A stretch of DNA of 64,000 bases from a virus (IMGVR_UViG_3300001598_000039:1-64000), one strand, 5' to 3'; numbered from the stretch's first letter, positions 33,148 to 61,487 are shown. Made by a program: numbers and translations. The notes: a model not told the origin generated them from the sequence alone.

Positions 33148-34731
33148 ATGAACGAGTCGATCCTAGACAAGCCGCAAGACGGCCTTTGCCCAGAGATATG
33201 GGAAAAACAGCCTGATGGCAGTTGGACAATGCATGATGCCGTCCGCCAGAAGCTCATCGCTTTGGCAGTAAGCGTCCTTGAGTCTGCGCATCTGCCAACA
33301 CACAACATCATCTTGCGCTTGACCGGGTCGCTCACATCGAACTCCTACACACCGGTATCTGATGTTGATGTACACATTAGCGGCTTCAGAGTCAGGGAGT
33401 TCCAAGAGATGACATAGAAGCGCATCAGCGAAGTCCTAGATGCGATGAAAGCCGCTAGCCATGACGATGTCTTCATTGGCCAGCACCCGATTGAGCTCTA
33501 CTACCAAGTGAGCGAGTTCCAAGACTTCATGTCGGTTGGATGCTATGACCTACTTGAAGGACGCTGGGAAGTTGGCCCGGAGATGACCGACAAGGAGTTT
33601 GACCCGTACAGTGAGTACTTCGACGTCGACATGCGCGGAGTCAAGTCCATCATGGCGGACGTCCGCAACACTATCCTCCGGCCGTATGAGAAGCTGGTCG
33701 CCTACAAGAACAGCTCAGACCAAGACTTCAGAGATGAGCTTGCAGTCAAGATCACTGCAGACCTAGAAGAGGCGGTCAAGCTGTTCGAGTAGCTGCGGAA
33801 CTACAGGAAGGTGTACAGCAGCCCTAAGAGCAGAGAAGAAGCGCTGAAGCGCCGGAGCTCGATGAAATGGAAGGTAGCTGACTCAACATTCAAGCTGATG
33901 GACAAGTTCGGCTACCTTGGAATCATGCGGGCCTACAAGCAGGCCCTTAACTCAGGCATCCAGCCGGACCAGTTCCCAAAGTTGGCCGAGTGGTTGCTTG
34001 GAAAGATGAAAGAGACAACTATGAAAGCACTTAACGACAGTGAGTACAGCATAAGCCTTGATGAGTCACAAGTCGACGAAAGCGGCGACACCATCAAAGC
34101 AGCTGTGCTTGCGGCGCTTCTTGCCATCCCTGGCGTATGCGGAGCTGAGCAGATCAAGCCGGCTCTCAACAGCAAGCAGCCTCTAGCAGCAGTTGAGCAA
34201 GTCCGTGCCAAAGCAAGCCCTAAGGCATCCTATAGCGGCTACTCATACTCCCATGCCACCAACATTGTTGCGTTGACCCTCTTTTGGGAAGCCCAGAACC
34301 AAGGCAAAGAAGGAATTGACCGTGTTGCGTCAGTCCTCTTGAACCGCTGCGACGGAGATGAGAAGAAGCTCCCTCTCGCTTGCCTCAAGAACGCGTACAG
34401 CTCAAAGGCAAAGCGCTACGTCTGGCAGTTCAGCTGCTGGGATGAGAAGGGGATCCACAAGATCCAGCGATCGACGCAGCGTCCAGGCAACTACCGCATC
34501 TTCATCCCGCGTGAGGTGAAAGCTGGAAAGCAAGCCTCAATCGACGTCTGGAAGTACTGCAATGAAGTCGCAGTCAAGCTCTGCGACGGCAAGTTCAAGA
34601 CGCTCGGAGACTGGACTGAGTACTACAACCCCGCTAGAGTGACACCAACTTGGGCTGACGAGCTGACTTCGGTCGAGACCTTCGGCAACCACAAGTTTGG
34701 CATCCTCAAGCGCCATGCGGCTTACACCTGA
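33148..34731 (+). CDS. One reading frame interrupted by two TAG codons (33415-33417, 33790-33792). N-terminal minimal nucleotidyltransferase whose catalytic domain spans the first TAG, plus a C-terminal SleB-like cell-wall hydrolase
   Basis: GS...SDVDVHI before the TAG and HDDVFIGQ third-carboxylate strand after it; the downstream segments lack ATG and RBS; Hydrolase_2 signature TLFWEAQNQGKEGIDRVASVLLNR...QFSCW. Confidence 0.55.
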
Positions 34732-41184: not shown

Positions 41185-41185
41185 G

Positions 41186-41521
41186 TCAGAACCTTATCAA
41201 CACATCTTGCGGCTTCAAGTCTCGCATCGAGCTTGCAAGCCATTCCTCAAGCTTCTCTTTCGACCCAAACCGACGTATGTCATTCTTCCGCGTCTCGCGT
41301 CGTTCCGCTGCAACCGTTCGGACAAGCCATCCAAGAGCATGCGGACTTTGTGCTTGCCATTCGCCAACGTTCGTCTCAAAGTAGCAGACAAGCGCATTTG
41401 GGTCGCACGTCTTCAGGTAGTCAATGAGCTTCTGCACAGTCAGCATGTTCTTGACACACCAAGCACGTTCTTCAGCCTTAGTCCTGAATGGCCAGCCGCG
41501 AGGCTTCTTGGCATCGCTCAT
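41186..41521 (-). CDS. Hypothetical protein (111 aa)
   Basis: Track ORF within the operon. Confidence 0.5.
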   Translation of the reverse strand: MSDAKKPRGWPFRTKAEERAWCVKNMLTVQKLIDYLKTCDPNALVCYFETNVGEWQAQSPHALGWLVRTVAAERRETRKNDIRRFGSKEKLEEWLASSMRDLKPQDVLIRF

Positions 41522-42249: not shown

Positions 42250-42263
42250 GGCCATATTGTACA

Positions 42264-42986: not shown

Positions 42987-43848
42987 CGCTGTAGTAGAGG
43001 AGGCTCATGTCATCGTGGTGCATCCAGCCTGTGATGTCTGTCTTGCAGTGCGCTCGGACATCAGCGACAGCCTTTGCTCCTAAGATCTGCTCAATCGCCT
43101 TCTCTAGGCGCTTGCAGTCGCATGGATCCGTCTTCAGGAACTCAATGCTCTCCCAGTCCGGCTTCTGGAGAGTGCCTTTAGCCGTAAGCCAACCAGCAAC
43201 ATATCCCCATTTGTAGCCCTTCTTGACTCCTTTGAAGGCCATAGGGAATTGCTCGTTCAGCGCCTTCGAGTCGATCGGACGAAGGACAATATGCCAGCCA
43301 TTCCTTGTAGGGACTAGGAACGCGTCGTCCGGTGTCTTTCCACAGGCGACTAGCGCATCCTTGACATAGTTGAAGACATCATCCTTGGTGACGCCATACA
43401 TCTCATCATTGTCCAGGTCGATGATCCACTTCTTGTCGCGGCTCTTGTGCATGCGGCACAGCGCTGACCTGAGGATGTGCTGGAACTTGATCGTAGGATT
43501 GTCCAAGCTGTCAAGGCAGAGCTTCAGCAAGTCAATCATGCAGTCTCTGACGGACCTAACCTGCGGCAAGATGTATGCGCGGGCATGATTTGACCTGCAG
43601 AGGTCGATGATAGTTGAGCGCTTCTTGTCATAGTACTCAACCGAAGACACCTCATACGTCTTGATCAGCCGGTTGGTCTCATTTGATCCATACTCAGTCC
43701 CGCGGACGTCTTTAGCACGGCGCAGGATCTGGATGATGTACCGGTCATAGGTGTCATTGATCTCCTTGCCGTCCTTCTTGCCACCGGTCTTGACTGCTTT
43801 CTTGAACTCAAGGTGTGGCCGAAACAAGTCAAAGTTGTCTATCGTCAT
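42976..43848 (-). CDS. Hypothetical protein (290 aa), leaderless (GGTGTAGAAT AGTTCC ATG)
   Basis: Track ORF. Confidence 0.6.
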   Translation of the reverse strand: MTIDNFDLFRPHLEFKKAVKTGGKKDGKEINDTYDRYIIQILRRAKDVRGTEYGSNETNRLIKTYEVSSVEYYDKKRSTIIDLCRSNHARAYILPQVRSVRDCMIDLLKLCLDSLDNPTIKFQHILRSALCRMHKSRDKKWIIDLDNDEMYGVTKDDVFNYVKDALVACGKTPDDAFLVPTRNGWHIVLRPIDSKALNEQFPMAFKGVKKGYKWGYVAGWLTAKGTLQKPDWESIEFLKTDPCDCKRLEKAIEQILGAKAVADVRAHCKTDITGWMHHDDMSLLYYSDDE

Positions 43849-43929
43849 GGAACTATTCTACACCGCCGGTGAGCAAAAGTTAAGCCGCACCCTTGCGAGC
43901 GCGGCTCTTTGATTCATAGAGGATAGCGC

Positions 43930-44850
43930 TTAGTCCCAAAGAGACAAAGCGTTGTCCTTCAGGTAGTTCATGACGCTATTCACCGCTACTTGGCAGCGCT
44001 GGCTGATCTTGTCGTACTGCAGACAGTCATATGTCCCAGGGTAGATCGGGAGAGGATAGTCTTTAGCCATGCCAACGGTATGGTCAGCTTTGTCCTCGAT
44101 GCCATGGTTGGTGTACCAAAGGACTAGCTTGCAGTTGAGGACAAGGCGTTCCAAGTCGGCTTTGTAGAGCTTCGAAGCGAGCTTGTCGACTTCATCCGGA
44201 TAGAGCTTCGCGAGCTGGCCATCGTCTTTGCCCTTTGCCTTCTTGGCGACGTCTGGGTTCTTCTTGTTGTACTCAGCTCTGGCGCGCTCGACGTACTGCA
44301 TTGGAAGGCCGTGCGAGTCGTAGAGATATGGGATGCGCTCGATCAAGTCCAAGAACAGCTGGTAGCCTTGGTTCCAAGTCACGCGGTCATCGTATCCTCT
44401 GAACATGCGCTGGAACGCCCACTTGATGGTGTACTTGAGGTCGCCGAGCATAATGAACGGCCGCTTGATTGCCCACCAGACAGTCTCATACCATGGCTCT
44501 TCATTGCGCCAAGCTTCGAGCTGCTCACTGAAGTCATCATACTCCTTGCGCTTGCCATCTTTGCCTTGGCAGATGATCCCACTGGCGTAGTCATAGTAGT
44601 ACTTGTACTGCTTGTTGGCCATGCGGATGTAGTCCTTCAGCTCCTTAAGAGCCTCCGGATGGCCTTTCGCCTTGAAGCGCTTCATTGTGACCTTCTTGGC
44701 CTTGCCGGTCTTAGCATCAGTCTCGATCCTGATGATCCGGAAGTCACGGAGATCTTGTTCACCGCGCTTCTTGGCCGCGGCAATGCTCTTCTTTGCTCGC
44801 TCAGTCTCTTCAGTGATGAACTTGGCGTCGCCTTCTGTCATGACTTTCAT
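43930..44850 (-). CDS. Hypothetical protein (306 aa)
   Basis: Track ORF. Confidence 0.6.
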   Translation of the reverse strand: MKVMTEGDAKFITEETERAKKSIAAAKKRGEQDLRDFRIIRIETDAKTGKAKKVTMKRFKAKGHPEALKELKDYIRMANKQYKYYYDYASGIICQGKDGKRKEYDDFSEQLEAWRNEEPWYETVWWAIKRPFIMLGDLKYTIKWAFQRMFRGYDDRVTWNQGYQLFLDLIERIPYLYDSHGLPMQYVERARAEYNKKNPDVAKKAKGKDDGQLAKLYPDEVDKLASKLYKADLERLVLNCKLVLWYTNHGIEDKADHTVGMAKDYPLPIYPGTYDCLQYDKISQRCQVAVNSVMNYLKDNALSLWD

Positions 44851-44865
44851 AAGTCTGTCCCTTGT

Positions 44866-45063
44866 TCAGCGGCGCAGCATTTGGCCGTTTGCCTTGTAGA
44901 CAACCGTCTTGCCGTTCCGCATGGTGATAGCAACCTTAGCATTGTTGCCTGATCCTGTCACTTGCGCATTGACGATCTCATCAGACACCCGAAAGCGGCG
45001 GATGATCTGCTTAGTGTCATTGTAGAGGTCGCAAGCTTTGCCTTTGAAGTTGGTGTAGTACAT
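44866..45063 (-). CDS. Hypothetical protein (65 aa)
   Basis: Track ORF. Confidence 0.5.
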   Translation of the reverse strand: MYYTNFKGKACDLYNDTKQIIRRFRVSDEIVNAQVTGSGNNAKVAITMRNGKTVVYKANGQMLRR

Positions 45064-45114
45064 AGTCTAGTGTCCTCAGTCTACTTACTGTTCAGTCCTT
45101 GCTCAAATTGTACC

Positions 45115-46089
45115 TCAGCAGATGAAGCATGAAGCTATCGCCAAGTCAATCTCCTTCGCCCGTTTCTTCATCTTCGCCTCTTGGCTTTTCGTCAATGGGT
45201 CTTTCACAAGCTCCCATGTATCGGTGTCAAGATAAGTGTTTGGGTTGAAGGTTGTGTCTTCAAAGTAGCCGCAGTAGCCGCGGGCATTCATGACGACCAA
45301 ACATGTTGACCCATCTTTGCGCTCAATTGGGATCGCCTTCTGGTCATGGATGTGGCCGCAACACCAAGCTTTGATCGACGGATGCTTCTCTATAAACCAC
45401 TCTAGTTGGCTGACATAGGACGCATTGACGCAGCTGTCTCGGTACGATGACTGAATGCAGCGGTCAGTCGGGCAATGATGAGTAAGGATCACAACAGGCT
45501 TTGGTTGGTCGCCAGCTTCATTAGCCGCAAGCTCCTCTTCAAAGCGCTCTATTGTCCGGTTGAACCAGCGGAGGTAGTGCTCAGGCGAAAGCTTGGTGTA
45601 GGTGAACTGGTCATCCTGGCCAAGGAAAGGCGCCTTTGCGTATGGAGCGAAGTGCCAATCATTCATCCCTCGATGTGGATGGACTGCAAGCCGCATGTTC
45701 AGCTGTTGGTCGTTCTCGCTTGGAGTCGCGCAGTATGGGAGCTTGTAATCTGTGTAGAGTGTGCTTCCCAAGAAGATGATGCCATTGACTTCCTTCTTGT
45801 AGACTCCAACATTGACATCGAGGTAGGTGATCGCCGACTCAGCTGGAAATGCCGCTGACAACTCATTCTTGAGATCCTGGATGCAGACTCCAGACCGGCG
45901 AGTGTAAGCAAGATGGTTGCCTGAGACAATCAGCCCATTCTGAATGTTCTTTTTTGCCCATTTGATGACCTGCGCGGTGTCTCCTGACGTATCGCCGCAC
46001 AGGACAGTGAAAACATCATTGTTCCTGAGACTGAACGAATGGGCGGCGTTCACATCGAGATGCAAGTCTGAAAGCACACGGATCTTCAT
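45115..46089 (-). CDS. Calcineurin-like metallophosphoesterase (324 aa)
   Basis: GDTSGD, GNH and GHIHD motifs; leaderless GCATGATATAAT AGGCTT ATG. Confidence 0.7.
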   Translation of the reverse strand: MKIRVLSDLHLDVNAAHSFSLRNNDVFTVLCGDTSGDTAQVIKWAKKNIQNGLIVSGNHLAYTRRSGVCIQDLKNELSAAFPAESAITYLDVNVGVYKKEVNGIIFLGSTLYTDYKLPYCATPSENDQQLNMRLAVHPHRGMNDWHFAPYAKAPFLGQDDQFTYTKLSPEHYLRWFNRTIERFEEELAANEAGDQPKPVVILTHHCPTDRCIQSSYRDSCVNASYVSQLEWFIEKHPSIKAWCCGHIHDQKAIPIERKDGSTCLVVMNARGYCGYFEDTTFNPNTYLDTDTWELVKDPLTKSQEAKMKKRAKEIDLAIASCFIC

Positions 46090-46101
46090 AAGCCTATTAT
46101 A

Positions 46102-46596
46102 TCATGCTTGTGGCTTGCGGTCAAAGTCCCAATCTTGCCATGGCCCAGGATAGCTCTTCCATTCATGGTAGGTGTCAATCTCATACTCTGCGGTGAAACG
46201 AGTGTTTTCCTCGAAAGAGAGCATGATTGTATGCCCGTCATAGCCGTACTTCTCCAAGACGCTGTACATGTAGCCAACAATCAGCACTCTGCATGCCTCA
46301 TTGAACATCTCTCGTTCCTCGCGGTCAAACATCTGGCCGTACTTGCTGTCAATGATGGTCTTGCACAGCTCTTTCCAGCCTTGCTCTTTGATGTAGGTGT
46401 CGCGATGCTTGTTTCCAGCGCAAGTCACATAGCTCCTGTCAAGGCAGATTTCCCTCGAAAGCCCTTTGACCAGAGTCTTGAGCTTGTCAAACTCCTCTTC
46501 AGTATAGTCCTCCTCATCAACTGTGCAGTCTAGGCAGACATGCTTGAACGTGATGACCAAGTCTGGATATGCTGTTGTCTTGCGCCTACGAGGCAT
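46102..46596 (-). CDS. Hypothetical protein (164 aa)
   Basis: Track ORF. Confidence 0.55.
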   Translation of the reverse strand: MPRRRKTTAYPDLVITFKHVCLDCTVDEEDYTEEEFDKLKTLVKGLSREICLDRSYVTCAGNKHRDTYIKEQGWKELCKTIIDSKYGQMFDREEREMFNEACRVLIVGYMYSVLEKYGYDGHTIMLSFEENTRFTAEYEIDTYHEWKSYPGPWQDWDFDRKPQA

Positions 46597-46597
46597 T

Positions 46598-46837
46598 TCA
46601 GTTTCCCTTCTTCCTAGAGAATGTCTGCATCAGGAGTATGGCAATGCACCATACGAAGCATGAGGCGAAGTAGACTTCAACAACAAGCGCCAATGGCAGC
46701 CAAAGCGGCGAAAGTACCCAAATCCAAGGCCAGGTAAGTATACCTAACAGCTTGAAGGCAACAAAATGGACCGCAAGCAATGCGGAGAACAAGAAGTTTG
46801 GCCCAGTTATGCTCCATTTTGATGGTGTAGAATGCAT
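46598..46837 (-). CDS. 79-aa membrane protein with 2-3 TM helices (holin-like candidate), leaderless
   Basis: GGGTATAAT GTTGCT ATG; hydrophobic. Confidence 0.5.
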   Translation of the reverse strand: MHSTPSKWSITGPNFLFSALLAVHFVAFKLLGILTWPWIWVLSPLWLPLALVVEVYFASCFVWCIAILLMQTFSRKKGN

Positions 46838-46864
46838 AGCAACATTATACCCGTGGGCGATAGG

Positions 46865-46876
46865 CGAAGTAAATAA
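46865..46876 (+). promoter_or_regulatory. Class III late-like motif GCGAAGTAAATAA ahead of the fibre genes
   Basis: Consensus match; GAAGGG RBS before ATG 46907. Confidence 0.5.
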
Positions 46877-46906
46877 AAACACGCCACGAACGAAGGGCCT
46901 AACGAA

Positions 46907-49900
46907 CATGTCTACATACACAGATCTTCACAACAGAGTCAAAGAAACGCTCAACGTTGACTTCCACTCACGCATTACGCCCCAACGCGCTCGCTTCCTG
47001 AACGAGGAGAATGAGTACTGGGGAACTTTCTCCGGAACGCTCTCAGCGGATGACATCGACGTCAATGGCGGAACTCTCACCAATGTGAAGGTCAACCATG
47101 CGACACTTAGCGACGTCACACTGAAGACAAGCGACGGAACTTCGATCGACATGAACTCGCTGGCGAATGACGTCCAGCAGATCTCCGCTGTCGCTTACAC
47201 AGAGATCCCTAAGATCTACGGCGACATCCGCTACCTTTCAGGCCAGATCAGCTCATCTGACACTAAGTTCGAGGAGTTCAAAGCTGAGACGAACGGCAAG
47301 TTCGACTATGTGAGCGCAGCGATCAGCAACGAGGTCGCAGATAGAATCAGCGCCGATACAGCTATCTATGAGACGGTTGATTCAGTCTCATGCAAGCTCT
47401 CTACAGACTATGTTGCCCGCATCGCCACCGAGAAGAGCGAGCGAGTCGCCTTCGACAACCAGCTTGACACCAAGATCGACCAGCGCGTTGATGCGGAAGC
47501 AGCCGCTCGTGCAGCGGCTGACACAGAGCTTTCAGACAGCTTCCTGTCTGCGCTCTACCATGACAAGCACTACACGCTGAACCCAGTCGACACGACGGTC
47601 TACCCATACGTCACGAAGGAGTTCGCCGTCAACATCATCACCAACAAGCTTGCAGATGCGCTAGTCTATGACCAAGTCAATGGCAAGCAAGTCGGCAAGA
47701 TTGAAGGCGACGTTGATTCGTTCACTTTCACCGCTTTCGGCAACATTGATGAAGAGTACAAAGTTGGCCTTGTTCCTGGATATGGCTATGACTTCAAGAA
47801 CGGCGTCACCCAGCTCTACACAATCAATGGCTACCAGCTCGTCGTTGAGAAGGGCACAACCCTCACTTCAACTAAGATCACTCTCAAGCCAACGGCGACT
47901 GAGTACTATAAGCTCAATTGGGACAAGACTGCAGAAGAACGCCTGATGCTTGGCCGCATCACCGCTGCATACGCAAACCCAGCGAACAAGGTGCTCAGCG
48001 GCTTCGTCACGGTCAACACGACTGACTCGACGATGGCGGCATTCAACGTCCAGTACGCTGAGTTCAACAACACAACAAAGACGGACATCAGCGTCACCAA
48101 CAGCGACGTCATCACCTACAACGGTGACAACACCTTCGACTTCAAGAAGAACATCGCTGACTACAAGTACATCTCCCTCAGCAACACTTTGGCTGAAGGC
48201 GCTCCTATCTTCGGCAAGGTCTACGAGATCGACGTCGACAAGGAAGGCGAGACATTGAAGTCTGTCCGAGTCAAGCTTCTGGACAAGGTTGACAAGGTTG
48301 AGCTCACTCAGGAGAACGGCTTCAAGGCTGAAGTCTCTGGTGACCTCTCAAGCACCACTTACCTCAGTGCATCTGACAGCCTGGTGTTCCATGAGCGCAA
48401 GGAGGCGATCCGCTACAAGTACGGCTTCTATGATGAGACCGACACATCTTTCGCAACTCCAGTCGGCTACATCGCAATCACAGACCTCAACACCAAGATG
48501 TCTGATGACTTCGACTGCACGCTCAGTGCTGACTTGACGACGATCGAGAAGATCCCTGAGCTCAAGCGCAAGTTCGAGCTCACCCGTACGCCTGGCACAA
48601 GCAAATGGACAACCGGCCAGACGGTTGAGGGCAATGTCATCACCATCGAGTTCGACAAGGAAGCAAAGACCTTTGACTACACGATCGTCACAGCGGTCCA
48701 CCACAAAGTCATTCAGGCGAGCTTCATCACCAACAACACGACGGTGTTCGTCGATGAGGACTTCTCCGAGGACATCGCGAAGTCGCAAGCAGTTGTGCTT
48801 GACTTCACTGGTTCGCCGCATGAGCTGATCCCAGAGAAGACCTTCCGCGTCAACGTCGGAGAGAAGGTCACCGAAGTTGGCCCAACCTGGGTGTTTGACC
48901 CTAAGACGGCCGGTATGGATGTCGTCAAGATGGTTGTCCCCAACAAGAAGGCGGACGACATCAGCCGCGAAGAGGTCATCGTCACCAAGTTTGAGACTGG
49001 AACGCTTGGTGGAAGCGTCCAGGTGAAGTTCATTGATGAGCTTGGCCGTGACATCCGGGTCTACAATGAGAAGAGCCTCACTTATCGCGTCCCAACCAAC
49101 ACTTACACGACCTTCAAGATCCAAGAGGTCCAGCCTGACATCTTCTTGCTGGTGGACCTCAATGAGAACTCTCAGGAAGGCCGCCTCGCAAAGCTGCGCG
49201 AGGACCTCAACAATGAGATCAGTGCCCGCAAGGATGACTCTGAGTTCCTCTCAGCAGGACTTAGCGGACTCAGCGGCCAAGTTGAAGACCTCAGCGCCGA
49301 AGTCTCAGGCATCATTACGCGCGACCGCAAGGACCTTACGTACTTCGGTGAGCTCAACTATGTCGACGACACGGTTGACAAGCACCTGAGCTGCTTCCTC
49401 CGCAACCAGTCGCGTTGGTACGGCCAGGATGACTACAAGTTCCACTACGGCTTCATGTACCGCCTGTCAGCCGAGCAGTCGCACTTGATTGACTCGACTG
49501 GAGCAACTAACTACCTCGGCGTCAACGACTACATCATCTTCAACAAGGAGCGCACGCTCAGCGACGTCACCTTCAACGACATGGTGATGATCCGCGACGC
49601 CGCGGGTGAAGCTGCAGCAATGCAGAAGTGGGTGTGTGACAACTTCGTCACTCTCAGCGGTGGTAATGAGATCCGCGGCACAAATACATTCACTGGAGTA
49701 CTTTCAGCTAAGGATGCCAAAGTCGACTACCTCAGCGCGGCAAAGGTAGATGTGGTCAACCTCAGCGGCTCCTACTACGACTTCACCAGCGGAAAGATCC
49801 ACGACCTCGAGGTCACTGGAAAGCTGACAGTCCATGAGACTGAGACCGAAGCCGACATCGACAAGCTCTCAGCGAACACCGCAATGATCACTTCAGCTGG

Positions 49901-50042
49901 CATCAGCGTCGAAGTGGTTGGCAAGTCGACAGTCACATCTGCTGAAGTCACAAACCTCACCGCGACAGCAGCTAAGGTCACAAACCTAACGGCTGACTCG
50001 CTCAACAACATCTACATTGGAGACCGCAGCAAGACTCTCTAG
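46907..50042 (+). CDS. Large tail-fibre-like protein (1045 aa); ends at an in-frame TAG
   Basis: Track ORF from the internal ATG MSTYTDL; 25-aa LSxGLSGxxxDLSAEVSG-type repeats near the C-terminus. Confidence 0.7.
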
Positions 50043-51278
50043 AGCATCATCGACCTGTCAGTTGACAACCTCAGCGCGCAGATCAGTGCAACGTCATGTG
50101 ACCTCTCCAATTGGCTCAACAACCTTCAGCTCAGTGTTGGAGGAGTCAGCGCCATTGTTGATGCGCTGAGCACGGGGCTTTCAGGAAAGATCGATGCGCT
50201 TGAACTGAGCGTCAATGGAGTCTCCGGCTTGGTTGACCAACTCAGCGGAGAGCTCAATACGACATCTGGACTCCTCAGCAACCAAATCACCGCTCTCTGG
50301 GCGGATGTGAAAGGTGGAGTCAACTACAAAGGCCACCTCAAGTCCTACCGCGACGCTGAAGAGAAGACTGTTGACCTGTCAGCGATCTACCTCCACAGCT
50401 TCAGCGAGTACACACCAGGGACGCTCCTGAACAATGGCTGGATGTACTGCTTCACAACGGAAGAGGCTACGAAGAAGTACACGACGAAGGATGGCATTGC
50501 TCTTGAAGACCGTGACTACATCATCGTCCACAGCCATAGCGACCTCTCGGCAGTCCCAGTCTCAGCAATTGGCCGCTCGACGATTGACATCATCGACGCA
50601 GCTGATGATGACTATGTCCGCATCGACCTCCTCGCTAAGGTCTCCGCTGACCTGTCAACAGACTACAGCGGCAAGATCAACAACCTGACGCTCAGCGTCA
50701 GCGGCATCAGCGGAGTTGTCAACAGCCTTTCCGCTGGACTCTCCGGCAAGATCGACAGCCTCGAGCTGAGCGTCAATGGAGTCAGCGCGGTAGTCAATGC
50801 TCTCAGCAATGGCCTCTCTGTCAAGATTGACGCATTGGAGCTCAGTGCAAACGGCATCAGCAATGTGGTTGATGCGGTCAGCGCCGGGCTTTCGACGAAG
50901 ATCGATGCCCTTGAGCTCAGTGCAAATGGCATCAGTGGCATCATCGATGCCCTCAGCGCAGGATTGAGCGGCAAGATCGACGCGCTTGAGCTCAGCACAA
51001 ACGGCATCTCCGGCGTAGTTGATGCGTTGAGCGCCGGCCTCTCTGGAAAGATTGACCAGCTCGAGCTCAGCGTCGCAGGAATCAGCTCGCGGTTTGATGG
51101 CCTCAGCGACCACCTCTCATTCACCCTCAGCGGAATCAGCAGGGAGAAGGATGCGGTCCATGACATCAGCTCGGACAACCTGATCATCACTGACGAGCAG
51201 GTCTCTCCTGGACATGTCCACAACCGCTACTACATGACCTTCCTCAGCGGAACTTTGGTGCTGAACCCAATCGCATAA
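50043..51278 (+). CDS. Fibre segment in the same frame as 46907..50042, separated only by TAG 50040-50042. It carries a 25-aa (75-bp) tandem repeat array, and coding continues upstream of the first possible start (TTG 50229)
   Basis: Repeat unit ELSVNGVSAVVNALSNGLSVKIDAL x>=7; no in-frame ATG or GTG between the TAG and 50229. Confidence 0.55.
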   Translation, partial: SIIDLSVDNLSAQISATSCDLSNWLNNLQLSVGGVSAIVDALSTGLSGKIDALELSVNGVSGLVDQLSGELNTTSGLLSNQITALWADVKGGVNYKGHLKSYRDAEEKTVDLSAIYLHSFSEYTPGTLLNNGWMYCFTTEEATKKYTTKDGIALEDRDYIIVHSHSDLSAVPVSAIGRSTIDIIDAADDDYVRIDLLAKVSADLSTDYSGKINNLTLSVSGISGVVNSLSAGLSGKIDSLELSVNGVSAVVNALSNGLSVKIDALELSANGISNVVDAVSAGLSTKIDALELSANGISGIIDALSAGLSGKIDALELSTNGISGVVDALSAGLSGKIDQLELSVAGISSRFDGLSDHLSFTLSGISREKDAVHDISSDNLIITDEQVSPGHVHNRYYMTFLSGTLVLNPIA

Positions 51279-51316
51279 CCAGGGCAAACGACAGAATCTA
51301 AAAGGTAAGTAAGAAC

Positions 51317-54300
51317 ATGAGCACATACACGCAGGAACAACCAAACATCTTCATCCTGAACGACAAGAACATTGTCCATGGGCTGAATGGTGATACGCCG
51401 CTTGGCCATAACCCAATCCCATCCCTGAGCTTGCATGTTGAGTCGTACAAGACTCTCAGCGGAATGGCAGATGGCATCAGCGCAGTGGTTGATTCGCTCT
51501 CATCAGGCCTCAGCGGAAAGATTGACCAGCTTGAACTCAGTGCGAACGGCATCAGTGGATACGTTGACAAGCTGGAGCTTAGCGCTTCTGGCATCAGCGG
51601 AATCGTCAATAGCCTTAGTGCTGGCCTCAGCGGAAAGATTGACGCCTTAGAGCTCTCAGTCAAAGGCGTAAGTGCAGTTGTTGATGCTCTAAGTGCTGGC
51701 CTCAGTGGAAAGATCGATGCAGTCCAGCTCTCTGTTGCTGGACTCTCTAACTACACCAAAGACCTTGCACTCAGTGCAACCGGACTCAGCGACAGCATCT
51801 CAGCGTTGGCGCTCAGCGTCAACGGAGTGAGCGGAGTCGTAGATGCCAACAAGGCTGCTTCAGAGCAGCGCGATGTGTATCTCTCAGGAGTCATCTCCAA
51901 CATCATCTCAGCTGACCTCTATGCCCTGAGTGGGGAAGTTTCTGCAGTTTCAAGCGCTCTTGACCTCAAGATCGAGACACTTTCGACTGACCTCAGCGAT
52001 ACTGTGAACAAGCAGTTTGTCCACATCAGTGGCGACACGATTGGTGGATCGCTCTCTGTTTCTGGCACAACGACAATCAGCAGCGACCTGATCGCGAAGA
52101 AGTCACTCTACGTCGGAACAAATGTGACTACGACCGAGGACGTCAACACAATCGTCCTTGGCGACCGCACTTCTCCTGCTGGCCGTGATTCCTTCGTGTG
52201 GAACGGCAACAACGGCGCGGTCTATGATGTCACAACTCATGGCACACACGGCACGTTCAACATCAATCCTGAAGGCGGACTCAATGGCCTCTACATTGGC
52301 CAAGAGACTCTGTCGACAACGTTCAGCAAGTACCAGCTTACTGCAACAATGCCAACAGACCTCAGCGACTTCACTAATGGCGCTGGATATGCGCTTTCGG
52401 CTGATGTCCCAACTAAGGTCTCCCAGGTCGAGAACGACGCCGCATTCCTGAGTGCCGAAGACTTTGACCTCAGCTCAGACACCACAAACCACAAGATCAT
52501 CCTTGTTGCTGGAGACAAGACATACTCTATCGACACGACAGACTTCATCAAGTCCCGGATGATCTACAAGGCGCAGATCACCACAAACCTCTCTGGTGAG
52601 AAGGTCCTCCGCCTTTGGTTCAGCGCTTCTGAGACAGACTTCATTGACATCGTCCTCACAGACCTCGTCAAGATCTACACAGCCGGCTACGGCATCAGCG
52701 TGGACAACGAGTACCGCATCCATGTCACAGACGTCATCGCCAAGAAAGTTGACCTTGATGCAGTGAGCGGCGCAGTCGACACAATCAACAACTCGACGGT
52801 GCCTTACCTCAGCGGAGTCATCAGCGGAACGCTCAGTGACATCACTGACCTCCGCCTCTATGCTGACAGCCTCAGCAACACGACGGTCATCGATCCTGGC
52901 GAGAAGTACCCAACTTACAAGGGAACGATCCCAACGCTCTCAAGTGCGATCGCCAAGCTCCGTGATGAGATCGGCAGCGGAATGACGCTTGCTGGCCACA
53001 TCCAGCTTGCACGCAACACAAGCAGCCCTTACGTCCCAACTTACAATGATGACACGCTCTCTGGCATCTTCCGCTACTTCAACCTTGCTGAACAAGGCAA
53101 GCTCCGCAGCGGAAACGTCTATGAGGTGAGCATCACTGGCCTCGACTACACAAGCACGACCGACCTGCAGAACTCCTTCTTCATGACGAAGGACGCAACA
53201 CCAATCAAGCTTGCGCATCGTGACCACATCATCATCCACAGCCATGACGGTGGTGACATCCGCCTTGAAGACGTCGCCAACTACATGGAGGTCATCCCGG
53301 CGGTCCGCTACTTTGAGTACTACAGACTGAGCGGCGCTACTGACGCTCTCTGTGCAGCGGTCGACTACCTCTCAGGAACGCCGTCTAACAAGGTGATGAT
53401 CAGCACAGACTGCACTCTCGAAGCGCTCTCAGCTGAAGGCTATCCTTACAACACCGGCGACATCCTGATCATCAAGAGCACGATTCTCCCATCGATCGGG
53501 ACGAATCCGGCCAAGTACCAGCATACCGCATACGTCTACGACGATGAAGTTGATGACTTCAAGCAGATGGATGACAACTATGCTCTTGACCATGTCTACG
53601 TCAACAATGAGTTCACATACTCTGGCCCATGGACGAAGATCGGCAACATCGACAAGCAGAGCACAGACATCATCTCTGTTGCAACGACACAATGCTCGCT
53701 GACGGACATGTTCAAGCAGATCTTCTCTAAGAAGGAAGCTCCAACAAAGACCAAGACTCCTGCTGAGACGCTGACAGTCAAGAACGGCACTGCGACATTG
53801 AACTCCTACTATGAAGCAGGAACAACAATCACGCCGGCACTCACAGCGAACATCAGCCGTGGCTGCTTCACTCCATGGCATGTCCTCAGCAGTGGCCTTG
53901 ACACATATCGCCAGAATCCAACTGGCCTGTCTGACTTCACACTCCAGATCACTGACACCTATGGCCAGTCTGTGACAAGCAGCTACACATCAGCCGACAC
54001 CCGCACTGGAGCACAGCTTACTGGTGAGACCAACAACTACAACATGCTTTCGACGTTGACACCGGTCAAACTGGTCATCGACAAGGACTATGTTGCTACA
54101 GCTAAGGTCACTTACAACACCAGCAACTTCGCTTTGGACAATGAGGGTGAGACGACTACACTCAAGTTCGATGGAACTACGCTGACGAAGACCTCTGGTA
54201 CGGTCATCCCATACTACAAGGTGTTCTACGGCACAAAGACTTCGAAGGCGCAGGACATGTCGACTTGCGACTCAGCGTACATCCGTGGAACAGGCATGGC

Positions 54301-54580
54301 ATCTACGACTTCGACTGCTGGTAACGGCACAAAGGTCACTATCAGCTTGCCAGTCGGAACGCTCCGCGTCGTAATCGCCTACCCAAGCCGCTTCACAAGC
54401 AACCTTGCATCCGTTACGGACAAGAACGGCATGGGAGCAAACGTCCGCAGCGCGTTCAATGCATCTCCAATCCTCCGCACAGTGAAGGACGCCGGCAACA
54501 GCGATGTTGAGTACAAAGTCTTCTACACAGACTTCGCATCTCCAACGGACAAGGCTAATGAGTACACCGCAACAATCTAA
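51317..54580 (+). CDS. Large tail-fibre-like protein (1087 aa) with the same 25-aa repeats at its N-terminus
   Basis: Track ORF; AAAAGGTAAG RBS. Confidence 0.7.
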   Translation: MSTYTQEQPNIFILNDKNIVHGLNGDTPLGHNPIPSLSLHVESYKTLSGMADGISAVVDSLSSGLSGKIDQLELSANGISGYVDKLELSASGISGIVNSLSAGLSGKIDALELSVKGVSAVVDALSAGLSGKIDAVQLSVAGLSNYTKDLALSATGLSDSISALALSVNGVSGVVDANKAASEQRDVYLSGVISNIISADLYALSGEVSAVSSALDLKIETLSTDLSDTVNKQFVHISGDTIGGSLSVSGTTTISSDLIAKKSLYVGTNVTTTEDVNTIVLGDRTSPAGRDSFVWNGNNGAVYDVTTHGTHGTFNINPEGGLNGLYIGQETLSTTFSKYQLTATMPTDLSDFTNGAGYALSADVPTKVSQVENDAAFLSAEDFDLSSDTTNHKIILVAGDKTYSIDTTDFIKSRMIYKAQITTNLSGEKVLRLWFSASETDFIDIVLTDLVKIYTAGYGISVDNEYRIHVTDVIAKKVDLDAVSGAVDTINNSTVPYLSGVISGTLSDITDLRLYADSLSNTTVIDPGEKYPTYKGTIPTLSSAIAKLRDEIGSGMTLAGHIQLARNTSSPYVPTYNDDTLSGIFRYFNLAEQGKLRSGNVYEVSITGLDYTSTTDLQNSFFMTKDATPIKLAHRDHIIIHSHDGGDIRLEDVANYMEVIPAVRYFEYYRLSGATDALCAAVDYLSGTPSNKVMISTDCTLEALSAEGYPYNTGDILIIKSTILPSIGTNPAKYQHTAYVYDDEVDDFKQMDDNYALDHVYVNNEFTYSGPWTKIGNIDKQSTDIISVATTQCSLTDMFKQIFSKKEAPTKTKTPAETLTVKNGTATLNSYYEAGTTITPALTANISRGCFTPWHVLSSGLDTYRQNPTGLSDFTLQITDTYGQSVTSSYTSADTRTGAQLTGETNNYNMLSTLTPVKLVIDKDYVATAKVTYNTSNFALDNEGETTTLKFDGTTLTKTSGTVIPYYKVFYGTKTSKAQDMSTCDSAYIRGTGMASTTSTAGNGTKVTISLPVGTLRVVIAYPSRFTSNLASVTDKNGMGANVRSAFNASPILRTVKDAGNSDVEYKVFYTDFASPTDKANEYTATI

Positions 54581-54593
54581 GGAACACTAAACT

Positions 54594-56612
54594 ATGGCAT
54601 TCACACCAGACAACCCGATCCCAACAACGCTGAGCTCGATTCCACGCCTCGACTTCGCGGTGGGATTTGCACCACAGACGGCGTTTCCGCTGAACGTGCT
54701 CGGGTACTTTGAACACTACAATGAGGCGCTTTCCGCTGCTGAAATGGCGAAAGACGCTGGATCTAGCGAATCGCGGTACTACATTGGCCAGCAACTGACG
54801 GTGTTTGACCGCACTACTGGCAAAGTGAAGACATACTACATCTCACCAGAGCATACCTTGGTAGAGCTTCCTGATGAGAAGACGATTGGTGACAACTTTG
54901 TCTGGCTCAGCGGCAACAACACCGCCGCCCGCAACCACCTAGTCTGCGGCAACAATGAGCTTAGCGGCAACAACCGCTTCATCTATGGCCAAACGGACAT
55001 CTCAGCCACGCAGGTTTCAGACTACTTCTACTTTGGCACGCCTGAATCCGGCCTAAGCGCGGTTAAGTCGACAGCAACACTCAGCTCCAACATGTTCGAC
55101 TTCACGCTGATGAATGCGGACGTCGCCAATGGCATGGGCGAGCTGAAGTCTAAGAACTACTCTCACGCTGAAGGCGATGCCACTAGTGCGCTTGGTATGT
55201 GCAGCCATGCTGAAGGTTGCTCAACTATCGCCAAGATGCCATACTCTCATGCCGAAGGTTTTGAGACAATGGCAGGTGATCCAACACAAGGATTCTCTGC
55301 AGGCCAAGCGAACCATGCTGAAGGCTACCAAACGAGTGCGTTTGGCGGTTCGGCAAACCACGCTGAAGGCTACAAGACATATGCTGACTCTGCCTATGCT
55401 GCTCACGCAGAAGGAATTGAGACAAGCGCAACTGGCTTGGCATCTCACGCTGCTGGCGTAAGTGCGGCGGTCTCAGCACAGTATGCCTATGGATGGAACG
55501 GCGACACTGGAGTCATTTACAAAGACCACGGCCAAGGCACGTTCAACCTTAACCCAATCGACGGCCTTAAGGGGATCTACATCGGTGACAAGACTCTCAG
55601 CGGAATCATCTCAGCGGAGATCAGCGCGGTCTCATCTCTCCTTGAACTGAGTTCGAACGGCATCAGTTCAGTCGTCAAAGCGCTCTCAACTGGTCTCTCT
55701 ACTGAACTCAGCAACCTTGAGCTGAGCGTCAGCGGCATCAGCTCAATCACCAATTCGCTCAGCACCGGCCTCTCAACCGCGATCGATGCTAAGGTTTGGG
55801 TCCTCGATCCTGAAGCGACATCAACTCCAATGTCAGCTGGAGCAAACACTGACCTCTCTATCATCAAGCTGACCGAGACTGAGTACGGCGCAATTGCATC
55901 TGATCCAACTCTCTCCGCGCAGCTCAATGACGGCAACAAGCTGTACATCATCTCCGCAGACTACATCAATGCCTACGGCGAGTCTATCCGCAACTTGGTG
56001 CTTCCAACTGATGCGACTGAAGACTATGCTGCAACAAAGGGCTATGTTGACACAACCGCAAGCCAGACTTCTGGAGCGCTCGAGCTCAGTGTTGGCGGCC
56101 TTTCAAACTACGTCAACCTGCTGGCACTGAGCGCAAACGGCATCAGCGGAGTTGTCAGTGCATTGGAGCTCAGCACAAATGGCATCAGTGCGGTGGTCAA
56201 GTCACTTAGTTCTGACCTGTCTGACGCAATCAACAGCAAGCTCTGGATCTACGACCCAGCCGCAATTGCATCACCAGTCTCAGCTGGAGCTGCAAGCAAC
56301 CTCTCAGTCATCAAGATTGACAAGGACAGCTACGATGAGATCATTGCTGACTCTACTCTGTCAACTCAGCTGCTCAGTGGCGACCGCCTCTACATTGTGG
56401 AGTCTGAGTACAACGACAGCTACGGCAAGCAGATCAAGAATGTCGGTGCTCCTACTGAAGATGATGATGCGGTGACGCTCTCGTATGTTGACACCAAGTT
56501 GGCGACATTCAAGAGCCTCTACACCCAGCTTACAGGAATCAGCCAAACGTCGCAGCTGTCTGACATTATCGACGCGGTGGTTGCAATCAAGAATGCTCTG
56601 AGCGACTTCTGA
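54594..56612 (+). CDS. Tail-fibre protein with xHAEG repeats and the 25-aa repeats
   Basis: YSHAEGDATSALGMCSHAEGCS...ANHAEGYQT...ANHAEGYKT...AAHAEGIET. Confidence 0.7.
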   Translation: MAFTPDNPIPTTLSSIPRLDFAVGFAPQTAFPLNVLGYFEHYNEALSAAEMAKDAGSSESRYYIGQQLTVFDRTTGKVKTYYISPEHTLVELPDEKTIGDNFVWLSGNNTAARNHLVCGNNELSGNNRFIYGQTDISATQVSDYFYFGTPESGLSAVKSTATLSSNMFDFTLMNADVANGMGELKSKNYSHAEGDATSALGMCSHAEGCSTIAKMPYSHAEGFETMAGDPTQGFSAGQANHAEGYQTSAFGGSANHAEGYKTYADSAYAAHAEGIETSATGLASHAAGVSAAVSAQYAYGWNGDTGVIYKDHGQGTFNLNPIDGLKGIYIGDKTLSGIISAEISAVSSLLELSSNGISSVVKALSTGLSTELSNLELSVSGISSITNSLSTGLSTAIDAKVWVLDPEATSTPMSAGANTDLSIIKLTETEYGAIASDPTLSAQLNDGNKLYIISADYINAYGESIRNLVLPTDATEDYAATKGYVDTTASQTSGALELSVGGLSNYVNLLALSANGISGVVSALELSTNGISAVVKSLSSDLSDAINSKLWIYDPAAIASPVSAGAASNLSVIKIDKDSYDEIIADSTLSTQLLSGDRLYIVESEYNDSYGKQIKNVGAPTEDDDAVTLSYVDTKLATFKSLYTQLTGISQTSQLSDIIDAVVAIKNALSDF

Positions 56613-56668: not shown

Positions 56669-57307
56669 TCAGCGGATGGCTTGCGGTGATGGATCAGCTG
56701 CAACAAACCTGTCGTAGTTGGCATCAAAGAACTCTTTGTAGCCAGTCTTGGCGTCGCCATTTGGCGCGATGTTCTGGTAGTCTCCAAAGATTGTTGTGAT
56801 CGCACCGACTCTTTCGCTGTAGCCATCCAAATGCTGGACATTGGCGACTCGCACGCAGACGATAGTCCTTGTCAAGTATGGCCCAAGGCTAGATTTGAGC
56901 GCCCAAAGCTCGGAGTCTCTGAACCAAAGGTAGTCGTTCATGTCCAAGATGAAGACTAACGTATGCTTAGCTTCAATGAACTTATTGATTGTAGGCTCGA
57001 CCTCCTGCGTGAAGCTGTACAAGTTGTCCTTCTTAAGGTGACAGCGCCGCATGTTCAGCTTGAAGTTCAATGCCTGGATGTCACTCCCGTCCGTGACAAT
57101 AGTCCAATTGTTGGTGTTGCAGTAGAGTGACCTGAACTCACCGGGTGAGTCTAGAAAGAGCTTTACGGGCATCACTCCTGTCATGTAGTTAAGCACGCGG
57201 CTGCCATTGAACGGAGACTTGTAGACTTTGTACGGCTCAAGCCTAGACATGCTTAGGGCGTCATTTGCCCAGCATTCGGAGCCAAGAGGGAATATGAACT
57301 TAGACAT
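56669..57307 (-). CDS. Hypothetical protein (~212 aa) in the glycosyltransferase operon
   Basis: Start moved to MSKFIFPLGS, overlapping the upstream stop. Confidence 0.5.
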   Translation of the reverse strand: MSKFIFPLGSECWANDALSMSRLEPYKVYKSPFNGSRVLNYMTGVMPVKLFLDSPGEFRSLYCNTNNWTIVTDGSDIQALNFKLNMRRCHLKKDNLYSFTQEVEPTINKFIEAKHTLVFILDMNDYLWFRDSELWALKSSLGPYLTRTIVCVRVANVQHLDGYSERVGAITTIFGDYQNIAPNGDAKTGYKEFFDANYDRFVAADPSPQAIR

Positions 57308-58136
57308 GTTGGATCCTCCATAATGGGTTGAGGTGGTCAGCGACCGGGTCTTGGATCTGTGATTTTGGCCCGTGCCTGAAATAGCTAGGAACGAAGACAC
57401 GGTCATAGCTGTCAGGATGCCAAGCGTTTCCAATGAAGCCGGCCCAATAGCTGAATGTACTGTTGCATAGGACTTTGTGCTTGAACATCCCTAGCATCAG
57501 CAAGTCTTCATGTGCAGCTTGGCCTGATATGAAGTGGACTGCATCAAAGTGCTCTCCAAACAGCTTTCCATAGAGCTTGGCGTTCAGGGAATTGTCGTCT
57601 GACAGGACATAGAGGTCAGTCAGCTCATTAGAGTTCGACTGCTGCATCAGCTTAAAGCAGCGAGCAAAGTAGGTGCTTCGGTCAAAGTAGTCAAATGGGC
57701 TGTCTGGATTGATGTAGTCTCCATTGCGGATATGGATTGCTGCGGAATGGTCGAAGTCGAGGTAGATGTTCCTCTCTCTCATTCGCTTCCAAGCTGGAGA
57801 TTGGAGTATGGTCTCTTTGCAGAACTCCTCAACCATGTCCAACGTGAAGTCAAGTCCAAACCGTTGGTGGTAGCAGCTAGTGAAGTCCGTCACATTATGG
57901 CTTATGCTAGATGGCGGCGTAGGCTCGCTCGGATCAGCAATCAGATGATCTAAGCCAAGATCCACTAGAGCTGGCATTTGGTTGAAGTCATCGATCGCCT
58001 TGTTTCGCAGCATCTTCCAACCAGTGGTGTCTCCGCAGCGCTTGTCCGCCGCATAGGTGATCATCAATGGGTACAGCTGGTTAGCAAGACGGCCATAGAT
58101 GTTGTTGCACTCAAAGTATGCTAGCTGTCTCTTCAT
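57300..58136 (-). CDS. GT11-family alpha-1,2-fucosyltransferase-like glycosyltransferase
   Basis: HIRNGDY and NSTFSYWAGF motifs. Confidence 0.65.
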   Translation of the reverse strand: MKRQLAYFECNNIYGRLANQLYPLMITYAADKRCGDTTGWKMLRNKAIDDFNQMPALVDLGLDHLIADPSEPTPPSSISHNVTDFTSCYHQRFGLDFTLDMVEEFCKETILQSPAWKRMRERNIYLDFDHSAAIHIRNGDYINPDSPFDYFDRSTYFARCFKLMQQSNSNELTDLYVLSDDNSLNAKLYGKLFGEHFDAVHFISGQAAHEDLLMLGMFKHKVLCNSTFSYWAGFIGNAWHPDSYDRVFVPSYFRHGPKSQIQDPVADHLNPLWRIQHV

Positions 58137-59032: not shown

Positions 59033-59033
59033 G

Positions 59034-59864: not shown

Positions 59865-59866
59865 GG

Positions 59867-61466: not shown

Positions 61467-61487
61467 CAGGCATATTGTACGCGGCAC

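What the first reader, a model, noticed from the sequence alone, without database searches (positions are those of the whole stretch)
50040..50229. Tail-fibre gene pair separated by a single in-frame TAG, with repeat continuity across the stop
The 46907..50042 fibre ORF ends in TAG, and the next ORF (track start TTG 50229) is in the same frame. The 186 nt between them encode further copies of the same 25-aa repeat (LSVGGVSAIVDALSTGLSGKIDALELSVNGVSGLVDQ) and contain no in-frame ATG or GTG. This is a second, independent locus where coding runs through a TAG. It would add ~410 residues to the C-terminus of a subset of fibres, comparable to the Q-beta A1 read-through protein, or to all fibres if TAG is fully suppressed late.
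Basis: seen in the sequence. Interest (0 to 1): 0.8.

Follow-up and report, generated by a model that had tools for sequence, protein, structure and literature searches.

The report
Amber codon read as glutamine in fibre gene
The "pair" of fibre genes is one 1456-codon gene containing a single in-frame TAG that this phage lineage most likely reads as glutamine, which is a new example of the already described stop-codon recoding of late phage genes rather than a new read-through mechanism.

Summary
A fibre-like ORF (ATG 46908, not 46907) ends at TAG 50040-50042. The same frame stays open to TAA 51276-51278. The 62 codons after the TAG contain no ATG, GTG or TTG and encode one and a half copies of the 25-aa repeat.

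The decisive evidence comes from a sister strain (95.4% nucleotide identity). It has CAG (Gln) at this position and one uninterrupted ORF. The supposed TTG start at 50229 is CTG there. dN/dS between the two strains is 0.02-0.06 on both sides of the TAG and in the 62-codon gap.

The sister carries its own in-frame TAG in the third fibre gene, where the window has CAA (Gln). The window has two more in-frame TAGs inside a conserved cell-wall-hydrolase gene (33148-34731). More distant relatives carry dozens of in-frame TAGs, aligned mainly with Gln, and no genuine in-frame TGA or TAA (one crude, apparently frameshifted translation set aside).

Best reading: genetic code 15 (TAG read as Gln), used very sparingly here. 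No suppressor tRNA was found in the 71 kb I could read, so how TAG is decoded is inferred, not shown. A Q-beta-like leaky stop, a nonsense mutation and a sequencing error are all less likely. This is a new member of a known kind, of moderate to low interest.

The parts
46908..51278 (+). One fibre-like gene: 1456 sense codons (counting TAG as Gln) plus TAA. Public gene calls split it into 1044/1096 aa and 349 aa.
   Evidence: The sister strain has a single ORF (P0012). dN/dS is 0.02-0.06 throughout.
50040..50042 (+). In-frame TAG, codon 1045, most likely decoded as glutamine.
   Evidence: It is CAG in sister strain L007 at the homologous position. TAG aligns mainly with Gln across the clade.
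50043..50228 (+). 62 codons with no ATG/GTG/TTG. They are coding: the start of a predicted helical shaft, containing the first 25-aa repeat copy (50124-50198).
   Evidence: There are 5 synonymous and 1 non-synonymous differences from the sister. Paralogue fibre C aligns across the TAG in one HSP, E = 8e-16.
50229..50231 (+). TTG taken as a start by ORF callers. It is an internal Leu codon of the repeat. A GGAG lies 8 nt upstream (50217-50220), so minor internal initiation cannot be excluded.
   Evidence: It is CTG in the sister strain. The sequence was read directly.
50304..50621 (+). Conserved small beta-rich knob domain (DVKGGVNYKGH...LNNGWMY...DYIIVHSH...IDIID..DDDYVR), the second such knob in the protein.
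   Evidence: Invariant columns in alignment A2. It is the only part of the AF2 model with pLDDT 70-81.
50685..51134 (+). Array of five to six 25-aa repeats (75-nt period).
51135..51275 (+). C-terminal module ending ...YYMTFLSGTLVLNPIA. Five of the seven homologues compared and the upstream fibre of relative L003 end in a similar module; the 1044-aa product would lack it.
33148..34731 (+). Second recoded gene: nucleotidyltransferase-like N-terminal domain plus SleB-type cell-wall hydrolase, 527 codons, with in-frame TAGs at 33415-33417 (codon 90) and 33790-33792 (codon 215).
   Evidence: phrog_36119 spans residues 10-218, and PF07486 matches at 385-517. Many homologues cover 100% of it as single proteins.
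55329..55331 (+). CAA (Gln), codon 246 of fibre C (54594-56612). The sister strain has an in-frame TAG here.

Best explanation
The window belongs to a large phage from a lineage that reads the amber codon TAG as glutamine (genetic code 15).

Shown:
- 46908-51278 is one gene for a 1456-residue fibre-like protein.
- Codon 1045 is a TAG that is interchangeable with CAG/CAA in this lineage.

Inferred:
- The gene cannot be translated to full length until amber suppression is active in the infected cell. Suppression is presumably supplied by a phage suppressor tRNA(CUA) encoded outside the sequence available here.
- Once TAG is suppressed, the ribosome inserts Gln and continues through a helical repeat shaft, a second knob domain, a further repeat array and the conserved C-terminal module.
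- In this genome the recoding is very sparse: three TAGs in 64 kb, in the fibre gene and a cell-wall hydrolase gene. Other genes, including at least one Pfam-supported gene, still end in TAG. This fits the published model in which early genes follow the host code and TAG-containing late genes are gated by the code switch.
For: 1. A sister strain (Logan ERR11637157 contig; L007, 95.4% identical over 18.9 kb) has CAG at the TAG position. Its fibre is one ORF under the standard code.
2. dN/dS between the two strains is 0.021 upstream, 0.061 in the 62-codon gap and 0.051 downstream. The TTG at 50229 is CTG in the sister.
3. The reverse case also occurs. The sister has an in-frame TAG in the fibre C orthologue where the window has CAA.
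4. The same genome has two in-frame TAGs inside a conserved hydrolase gene. One PHROG profile spans the first. Many homologues are single proteins covering 100% of it. The closest homologue has Q at the second TAG column. A restart at GTG 33811 would cut the invariant RK of the RKVYSSP motif.
5. In relatives, stops inside homologous alignments are TAG more than 100 times. The four other stops (three TAA, one TGA) all lie just upstream of the probable true start of a gene, as judged from positions. L002 has 49 in-frame TAGs in 13 of 14 genes, and none of its genes ends in TAG. Its deposited protein carries Q at those codons.
6. In a DnaB alignment of the clade, the 21 columns holding a TAG have Q in 35% of the other sequences, against a Q background of 2.8%. 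Several of these columns are otherwise all Q.
7. The downstream segment lacks the N-terminal module (M.YT...FLKD.DI...) that six of its seven stand-alone homologues share. The upstream ORF lacks the C-terminal module in which most of these fibres end.
8. Paralogue fibre C aligns across the TAG in one HSP (IYIGDKTLSGII..., E = 8e-16).
9. The phenomenon is documented. TAG-to-Gln recoding concentrated in structural and lysis genes is described in bioRxiv 10.1101/2021.08.26.457843. Proteomic proof, including a tail fibre protein, is in PMC9523058.
Against: - No tRNA gene and no Rfam family was found in the window plus the 6.9 kb beyond it, nor any suppressor tRNA in any related locus I fetched. 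The agent of decoding is therefore unobserved. The genome is incomplete: the source contig is about 88 kb and relatives' contigs are 127-252 kb.
- TAG still closes about 5 of 73 predicted genes, at least one with a Pfam domain reaching its end. TAG is therefore not purely a sense codon here.
- The window has only three recoded codons, so the statistical case from this genome alone is weak. The chance that all four in-frame stops in the two strains are TAG is about 0.09 under random nonsense mutation.
- The efficiency of suppression is unknown, so a mixture of 1044-aa and 1456-aa products cannot be excluded.
Confidence: 0.85

Rival explanations
1. Programmed leaky termination of the Q-beta A1 type. 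TAG is a real stop read through at low frequency by a host tRNA. This would give a major 1044-aa fibre and a minor 1456-aa fibre, both functional.
For: TAG is used as a terminator elsewhere in the window. No suppressor tRNA was found. Partial suppression would give two isoforms by default.
Against: The stop is not conserved: the 95%-identical sister has CAG and can only make the long form. The short form lacks the C-terminal module in which most of the homologues end. No stable RNA structure follows the stop (z = 0.06). The same codon interrupts an enzyme domain in the hydrolase gene, where a truncated product makes no sense. The clade uses TAG as a general Gln codon.
Confidence: 0.07
2. A recent nonsense mutation in a standard-code phage. 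The fibre is truncated at 1044 aa. The downstream part is either dead or expressed separately from TTG 50229, which has a GGAG 8 nt upstream.
For: CAG to TAG is a single transition. The window strain also has TTG where the sister has CTG, with a GGAG at 50217-50220. Public gene callers model it this way.
Against: This requires independent tolerated nonsense mutations in three late genes across two strains. All are TAG, and both that can be compared with the sister strain fall at Gln codons. There is no frameshift or further stop in the 411 downstream codons, and dN/dS is 0.05. The 349-aa product would begin inside a repeat and lack the N-terminal module shared by most stand-alone homologues. 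The relatives are plainly code 15.
Confidence: 0.06
3. A sequencing or assembly error, or a rare population variant fixed in the consensus.
For: It is a single base in metagenomic data. The two assemblies that carry it may derive from the same reads.
Against: The TAG is identical in a Logan assembly and in the JGI-derived proteins. Three such TAGs occur in the window and a fourth in the sister strain, always TAG.
Confidence: 0.02

Closest known systems
TAG-to-Gln (genetic code 15) recoded gut and animal-microbiome phages, such as crAss-like, Lak and the 'gemstone' clades (bioRxiv 10.1101/2021.08.26.457843; proteomic validation in PMC9523058; Phassvirus group in PMC10607447)
   Same: In-frame TAG in structural and lysis-type genes. 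TAG is interchangeable with CAG/CAA. Some genes remain compatible with the standard code. Close relatives differ in where and how much they are recoded. Standard-code gene callers fragment the genes.
   Different: The recoding is extremely sparse: 3 TAGs in 64 kb, which changes coding density by roughly 0.4% (my estimate). The genome is 53% G+C, whereas the published route to recoding stresses low G+C. No suppressor tRNA has been seen yet. The lineage has no close relative in GenBank phages (fibre: no hit; DnaB at most 28% identity) or in IMG/VR.
Q-beta A1 (read-through coat protein)
   Same: A C-terminal extension of a virion protein lies beyond an in-frame stop.
   Different: As I recall it (not checked here), Q-beta uses a conserved leaky UGA read by host tRNA at a few per cent, and both products are required. 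Here the stop is replaced by CAG in the nearest strain, the codon is TAG, and the lineage uses it as a regular Gln codon.
Laboratory amber mutants grown on supE (Gln-inserting) suppressor hosts
   Same: A CAG-to-TAG change in an essential late gene is rescued by a glutamine-inserting amber suppressor, restoring the wild-type protein.
   Different: Here the state is natural, recurs at several sites and strains, and sits within a clade whose other members are pervasively recoded.

Membership tests
Code 15 (TAG to Gln) recoded phages | In-frame TAG inside conserved protein-coding genes, with coding continuing downstream | tested here: met
   The fibre gene has a TAG at 50040. The hydrolase gene has TAGs at 33415 and 33790. 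Homologues and a PHROG profile span them.
Code 15 (TAG to Gln) recoded phages | TAG positions align with glutamine in homologues | tested here: met
   TAG 50040 corresponds to CAG in the sister. The sister's TAG corresponds to CAA in the window. Hydrolase TAG 2 aligns with Q in the nearest homologue; TAG 1 aligns with N/T/Q. In DnaB columns holding a TAG, Q is at 35% against a 2.8% background. Internal repeats of P0002 have Q at the TAG codons.
Code 15 (TAG to Gln) recoded phages | Only one stop codon is recoded; there is no in-frame TGA or TAA | tested here: met
   There are more than 100 TAG against 4 TAA/TGA, and all 4 lie just upstream of the probable true start of a gene. In L022 the crude translation also shows many TAA/TGA and looks frameshifted, so it was not used.
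Code 15 (TAG to Gln) recoded phages | Recoded codons concentrated in late (structural, lysis) genes | tested here: met
   In the window only the fibre gene and the cell-wall hydrolase gene carry them. The ligase, exonuclease and DnaB genes have none. In lower-G+C relatives, however, even DnaB is recoded.
Code 15 (TAG to Gln) recoded phages | Phage-encoded suppressor tRNA(CUA) or other code-change machinery | tested here: inconclusive
   ARAGORN and Rfam find nothing in the window plus L006 (71 kb), and no suppressor in any fetched locus. The genome is incomplete. No release factor or aminoacyl-tRNA synthetase appeared among the proteins scanned.
Code 15 (TAG to Gln) recoded phages | Gln found at TAG positions in expressed protein | not testable with these tools
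   This needs proteomics.
Q-beta A1-type programmed read-through | The leaky stop codon is conserved among relatives, because both the short and long products are needed | tested here: not met
   The sister strain has CAG and a single ORF.
Q-beta A1-type programmed read-through | A local sequence or structure context that promotes read-through | tested here: not met
   The 125 nt around and after the TAG fold no better than shuffled sequence (z = 0.06).
Phage tail fibre | Homology to a characterised tail fibre or spike | tested here: inconclusive
   Only weak hits were found: phrog_1204 'tail protein' at E = 5.6e-4, and nothing significant in Pfam or PDB sequences. The fibre assignment rests on architecture. 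There are three tandem long genes; fibres A and B begin MSTYT, and the longer N-terminal motif is shared by fibre B and most stand-alone homologues. Repeats, knob domains and adjacent glycosyltransferase genes complete the picture.

The most novel reading that the evidence does not exclude
Minimal, "cryptic" recoding. A comparatively G+C-rich (53%) member of a code 15 clade keeps only a handful of amber codons, placed in a fibre gene and a cell-wall hydrolase gene. They would act as a translational gate for late functions. Incomplete suppression at codon 1045 could also yield two fibre lengths (1044 and 1456 aa) on the virion. Such genomes are invisible to coding-density screens, so the prevalence of recoded phages would be underestimated.
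Probability: 0.2. Interest if true: 0.55.

Novelty: new member of a known kind. Interest (0 to 1): 0.3.

Why it matters
The practical consequence is for annotation. Public gene calls (JGI, Logan) split this fibre gene into 1044/1096-aa and 349-aa pieces, and split the hydrolase gene into pieces as well.

A genome with three recoded codons in 64 kb changes coding density by roughly 0.4% (my estimate). Coding-density comparisons, the kind of screen that reveals heavily recoded genomes (PMC9523058), would probably miss it.

Biologically, it adds a previously unsampled large-phage lineage to the list of TAG-to-Gln users. DnaB is at most 28% identical to any GenBank phage. G+C in the lineage ranges from 25% to 53%. 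TAG and CAG/CAA exchange between strains only 5% apart, and the number of recoded codons appears lower in the higher-G+C members I looked at (an impression, not a tested trend). It does not reveal a new mechanism.

Tried and rejected
- GenBank phages: megablast and tblastn of the fibre region found no match.
- IMG/VR: scans with the junction peptide and with the fibre alignment found no relative.
- GTDB genome contigs: two scans found nothing.
- Exact-protein look-ups failed several times. In some searches this was because of start-codon choice, or my own error in trimming a minus-strand ORF at the wrong end (later corrected). Searches failed for reasons I did not establish, so the JGI source contig could not be retrieved.
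- Reaching the sister strain's hydrolase gene through an identical small neighbour returned only a 1.1-kb contig.
- The suppressor tRNA search was negative everywhere: ARAGORN on the window and all 30 loci, and Rfam on the window plus L006.
- No RNA structure stands out downstream of the TAG. There is no promoter in the gap, and only one weak terminator-like hairpin at 50134-50152, no more than chance gives.
- The AlphaFold2 model of the 411-aa extension was low confidence (mean pLDDT 53), so I ran no fold search on it.
- A naive comparison of ORF totals under alternative codes was uninformative, because any reassignment lengthens ORFs. A greedy code 15 ORF selection produced spurious antisense ORFs.
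- The stop-type argument alone is weak (P about 0.09).
- Pyrrolysine decoding was considered and set aside, because TAG exchanges with CAG/CAA and aligns with Gln.

Full report
**1. Observation**

The sequence shows ...GAC CGC AGC AAG ACT CTC TAG AGC ATC ATC GAC CTG.... The TAG at 50040-50042 closes an ORF whose likely start is ATG 46908.

The frame stays open for 411 more codons, to TAA 51276-51278. The first ATG/GTG/TTG after the TAG is TTG 50229.

The 25-aa repeat LELSVNGISGVVDALSAGLSGKIDA has copies at fused residues 1073 and 1098. These lie inside the 186-nt stretch and run across the TTG. Further copies are at residues 1260-1385. No copy lies upstream of the TAG, so the repeats show that 50124-50228 is coding. 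They do not by themselves show continuity across the stop.

The 62-codon gap scores like coding sequence. A Logan assembly of SRR1221442 is identical to the window over the 14,435 bases compared directly and has the same TAG; a second stretch of that contig carries the window's ligase gene.

**2. What the window is**

The window is 53% G+C and has no tRNA gene. Its genes include:
- an NAD-dependent DNA ligase
- an exonuclease
- an HNH endonuclease
- a Ro-like RNA-binding protein
- a PARP-like protein
- many small ORFs with no database match
- a dTDP-sugar and glycosyltransferase cluster flanking three long tandem fibre-like genes: A 46908-51278, B 51317-54580 and C 54594-56612

A DnaB helicase lies just beyond the window.

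Nothing similar exists in GenBank phages; DnaB is at most 28% identical. Nothing similar exists in IMG/VR or GTDB genomes either. Relatives with 55-67% DnaB identity sit on metagenomic contigs of up to 136 and 252 kb. This is probably a large phage of an unsampled lineage.

The "tail fibre" label is an inference from architecture, because database support is weak.

**3. The decisive comparison**

The 90% protein cluster of the fibre contains a 1489-aa member, P0012. Its contig (Logan ERR11637157, 46.4 kb) is colinear with window 36809-55704 at 95.4% identity.

At the TAG position that strain has CAG, giving ...SKTLQSIIDLSV..., and the gene is a single standard-code ORF.

Comparing the two strains codon by codon:

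| Segment | dS | dN/dS |
|---|---|---|
| Upstream 1044 codons | 0.18 | 0.021 |
| 62-codon gap (5 synonymous, 1 non-synonymous) | 0.12 | 0.061 |
| Codons after the TTG (1108-1456) | 0.17 | 0.051 |

The TTG at 50229 is CTG in the sister, so it is an internal leucine codon rather than a conserved start.

Within the window itself, paralogue fibre C aligns with fibre A across the TAG in one HSP (IYIGD-KTLSGII...LELSSNGISSVVKALSTGLS; E = 8e-16).

**4. TAG is a sense codon in this lineage**

(a) The sister strain has an in-frame TAG at codon 246 of its fibre C orthologue (NHAEGY*TRAFGG). The window has CAA there (NHAEGYQTSAFGG), and the frame continues.

(b) The window gene 33148-34731 has two in-frame TAGs.
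- A single PHROG profile covers residues 10-218, across the first TAG. A SleB-type hydrolase domain follows.
- Forty-seven homologues were found, many covering 100% of the 527 residues as one protein.
- In the alignment the TAG columns hold N/T/Q and Q/S/T/K. The nearest homologue (57% identity) has N and Q.
- The nearest possible restart after the second TAG would remove the invariant RK of the RKVYSSP motif.
- Two IMG/VR homologues of this gene carry 4 and 9 in-frame TAGs.

(c) The more distant syntenic relative L002/L003 (36.7% G+C) has 49 in-frame TAGs in 13 of 14 genes, and no gene there ends in TAG. The deposited protein P0002 has Q at each TAG of its gene.

(d) Across all fetched relatives, stops inside alignments to window proteins are TAG more than 100 times. 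The three TAA and one TGA all lie just upstream of the probable true start of a gene.

(e) DnaB genes of seven relatives contain one to nine in-frame TAGs each. In the 21 alignment columns holding a TAG, the other sequences have Q in 35% of cells, against 2.8% overall. Four of the columns are otherwise all Q.

Only two loci in the window show coding continuity across a TAG.

**5. Architecture argues for one protein**

Six of the seven stand-alone homologues of the downstream part (420-1115 aa) begin with a conserved module of about 50 residues (M.YT....FLKD.DI...G....G....NG..S.DL), which I take to be an attachment module. Five of them end in a C-terminal module (...Y.L..L.GTLVL...).

In the window, the segment after the TAG lacks the N-terminal module. 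The ORF before the TAG lacks the C-terminal one.

In relative L002 the homologous material sits in two adjacent genes of 1251 and 500 aa, each with both modules. Fibre A therefore looks like a fusion that predates the split of the two strains. That is an inference.

The AlphaFold2 model of the extension is of low confidence (pLDDT 53). It suggests helix, then a small beta knob, then a long helix, then a small beta domain.

**6. Mechanism**

Shown:
- It is one gene.
- TAG and Gln codons exchange in this lineage.
- The clade is pervasively recoded.

Inferred:
- TAG is decoded as Gln by an amber suppressor tRNA supplied by the phage. This matches the published model in which structural and lysis genes with in-frame stops are translated only after the code switch (bioRxiv 10.1101/2021.08.26.457843). 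That model has proteomic confirmation of Gln at TAG, including in a tail fibre protein (PMC9523058).

I found no tRNA or Rfam hit in the 71 kb available for this phage, and no suppressor in any related locus. That step remains open.

About five predicted genes still end in TAG, among them a BspA-type LRR protein whose Pfam domain reaches its C-terminus. This is compatible with dual use of the codon.

**7. Rivals**

- **Q-beta-type leaky termination.** It fails on conservation of the stop and on context.
- **Plain nonsense mutation with a restart at TTG 50229.** A GGAG lies 8 nt upstream, and the TTG is specific to this strain, so this cannot be wholly excluded. It would need repeated tolerated TAG-only nonsense events in strongly constrained late genes, at Gln codons wherever the sister strain allows a check.
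- **Sequencing error.** This is unlikely given two assemblies and four such codons.

**8. Verdict**

The Q-beta analogy and the "gene pair" framing are not.

This is a new, sparsely recoded, relatively G+C-rich member of the known class of TAG-to-Gln phages. Its interest is mainly for annotation and for the natural history of recoding, not for mechanism.

Noticed in passing
window 33148-34731 (+): A cell-wall hydrolase gene (nucleotidyltransferase-like N-terminal part plus a SleB-type PF07486 domain) has two in-frame TAGs, at 33415 and 33790. Public gene calls hold only fragments of it (for example the 289-aa P0016).
   Followed up: yes
L007 18521-18523 (sister strain); window 55329-55331: The sister strain (95% identical) has an in-frame TAG in its fibre C orthologue where the window has CAA. 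This is the reverse of the situation at 50040.
   Followed up: yes
window 16336-17562 (-): A 409-aa protein has a WGR domain and a poly(ADP-ribose) polymerase catalytic domain (PF05406 E = 1.3e-7; PF00644 E = 8.5e-19). This domain combination struck me as unusual for a phage.
   Followed up: no
window 30487-32187 (-): A 566-aa protein matches phrog_850 ('RNA-binding protein', which looked Ro/TROVE-like to me) at E = 2.7e-135. Rfam found no partner RNA (Y RNA or tRNA) anywhere in the window.
   Followed up: partly
window 50217-50231: A GGAG lies 8 nt upstream of TTG 50229. The TTG is CTG in the sister strain. A fortuitous internal initiation site, present only in the strain that carries the TAG, is possible.
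   Followed up: partly
window 50685-51134; also 51317-51900 (fibre B) and about 55650 onward (fibre C): The 25-aa repeat is shared by all three fibre genes. It matches plant leucine-rich-repeat receptor kinases in a PDB sequence search (E about 2e-8). AlphaFold2 (low confidence) instead models it as a long helix.
   Followed up: partly
window 37250-46089 and 56669-61487 (-): The fibre genes are flanked by sugar-nucleotide and glycosyltransferase genes. These include a dTDP-sugar isomerase, an RmlD-like epimerase, a rhamnosyltransferase, GT2, GT11 and DUF4422 proteins. This could point to glycosylation of the fibres or modification of the host surface.
   Followed up: no
window 14410-14877 (-) and 12128-13045 (+): A BspA-type LRR protein (PF13306, E = 1e-23) ends in TAG and overlaps the next gene's start. 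A protein with InlB B-repeat domains (PF18998) lies nearby.
   Followed up: no
L002/L003 6225-11503 compared with window 46908-51278: In a distant syntenic relative, the material of fibre A is split between two adjacent genes (1251 and 500 aa), each with its own N- and C-terminal modules. Fibre A looks like an in-frame fusion of the two.
   Followed up: partly
L011-L025 (DnaB relatives): G+C in the clade ranges from 25% to 49% (53% in the window). The number of in-frame TAGs per DnaB gene ranges from 0 to 9. The window phage and the 47% and 49% G+C loci have 0, 0 and 1.
   Followed up: partly
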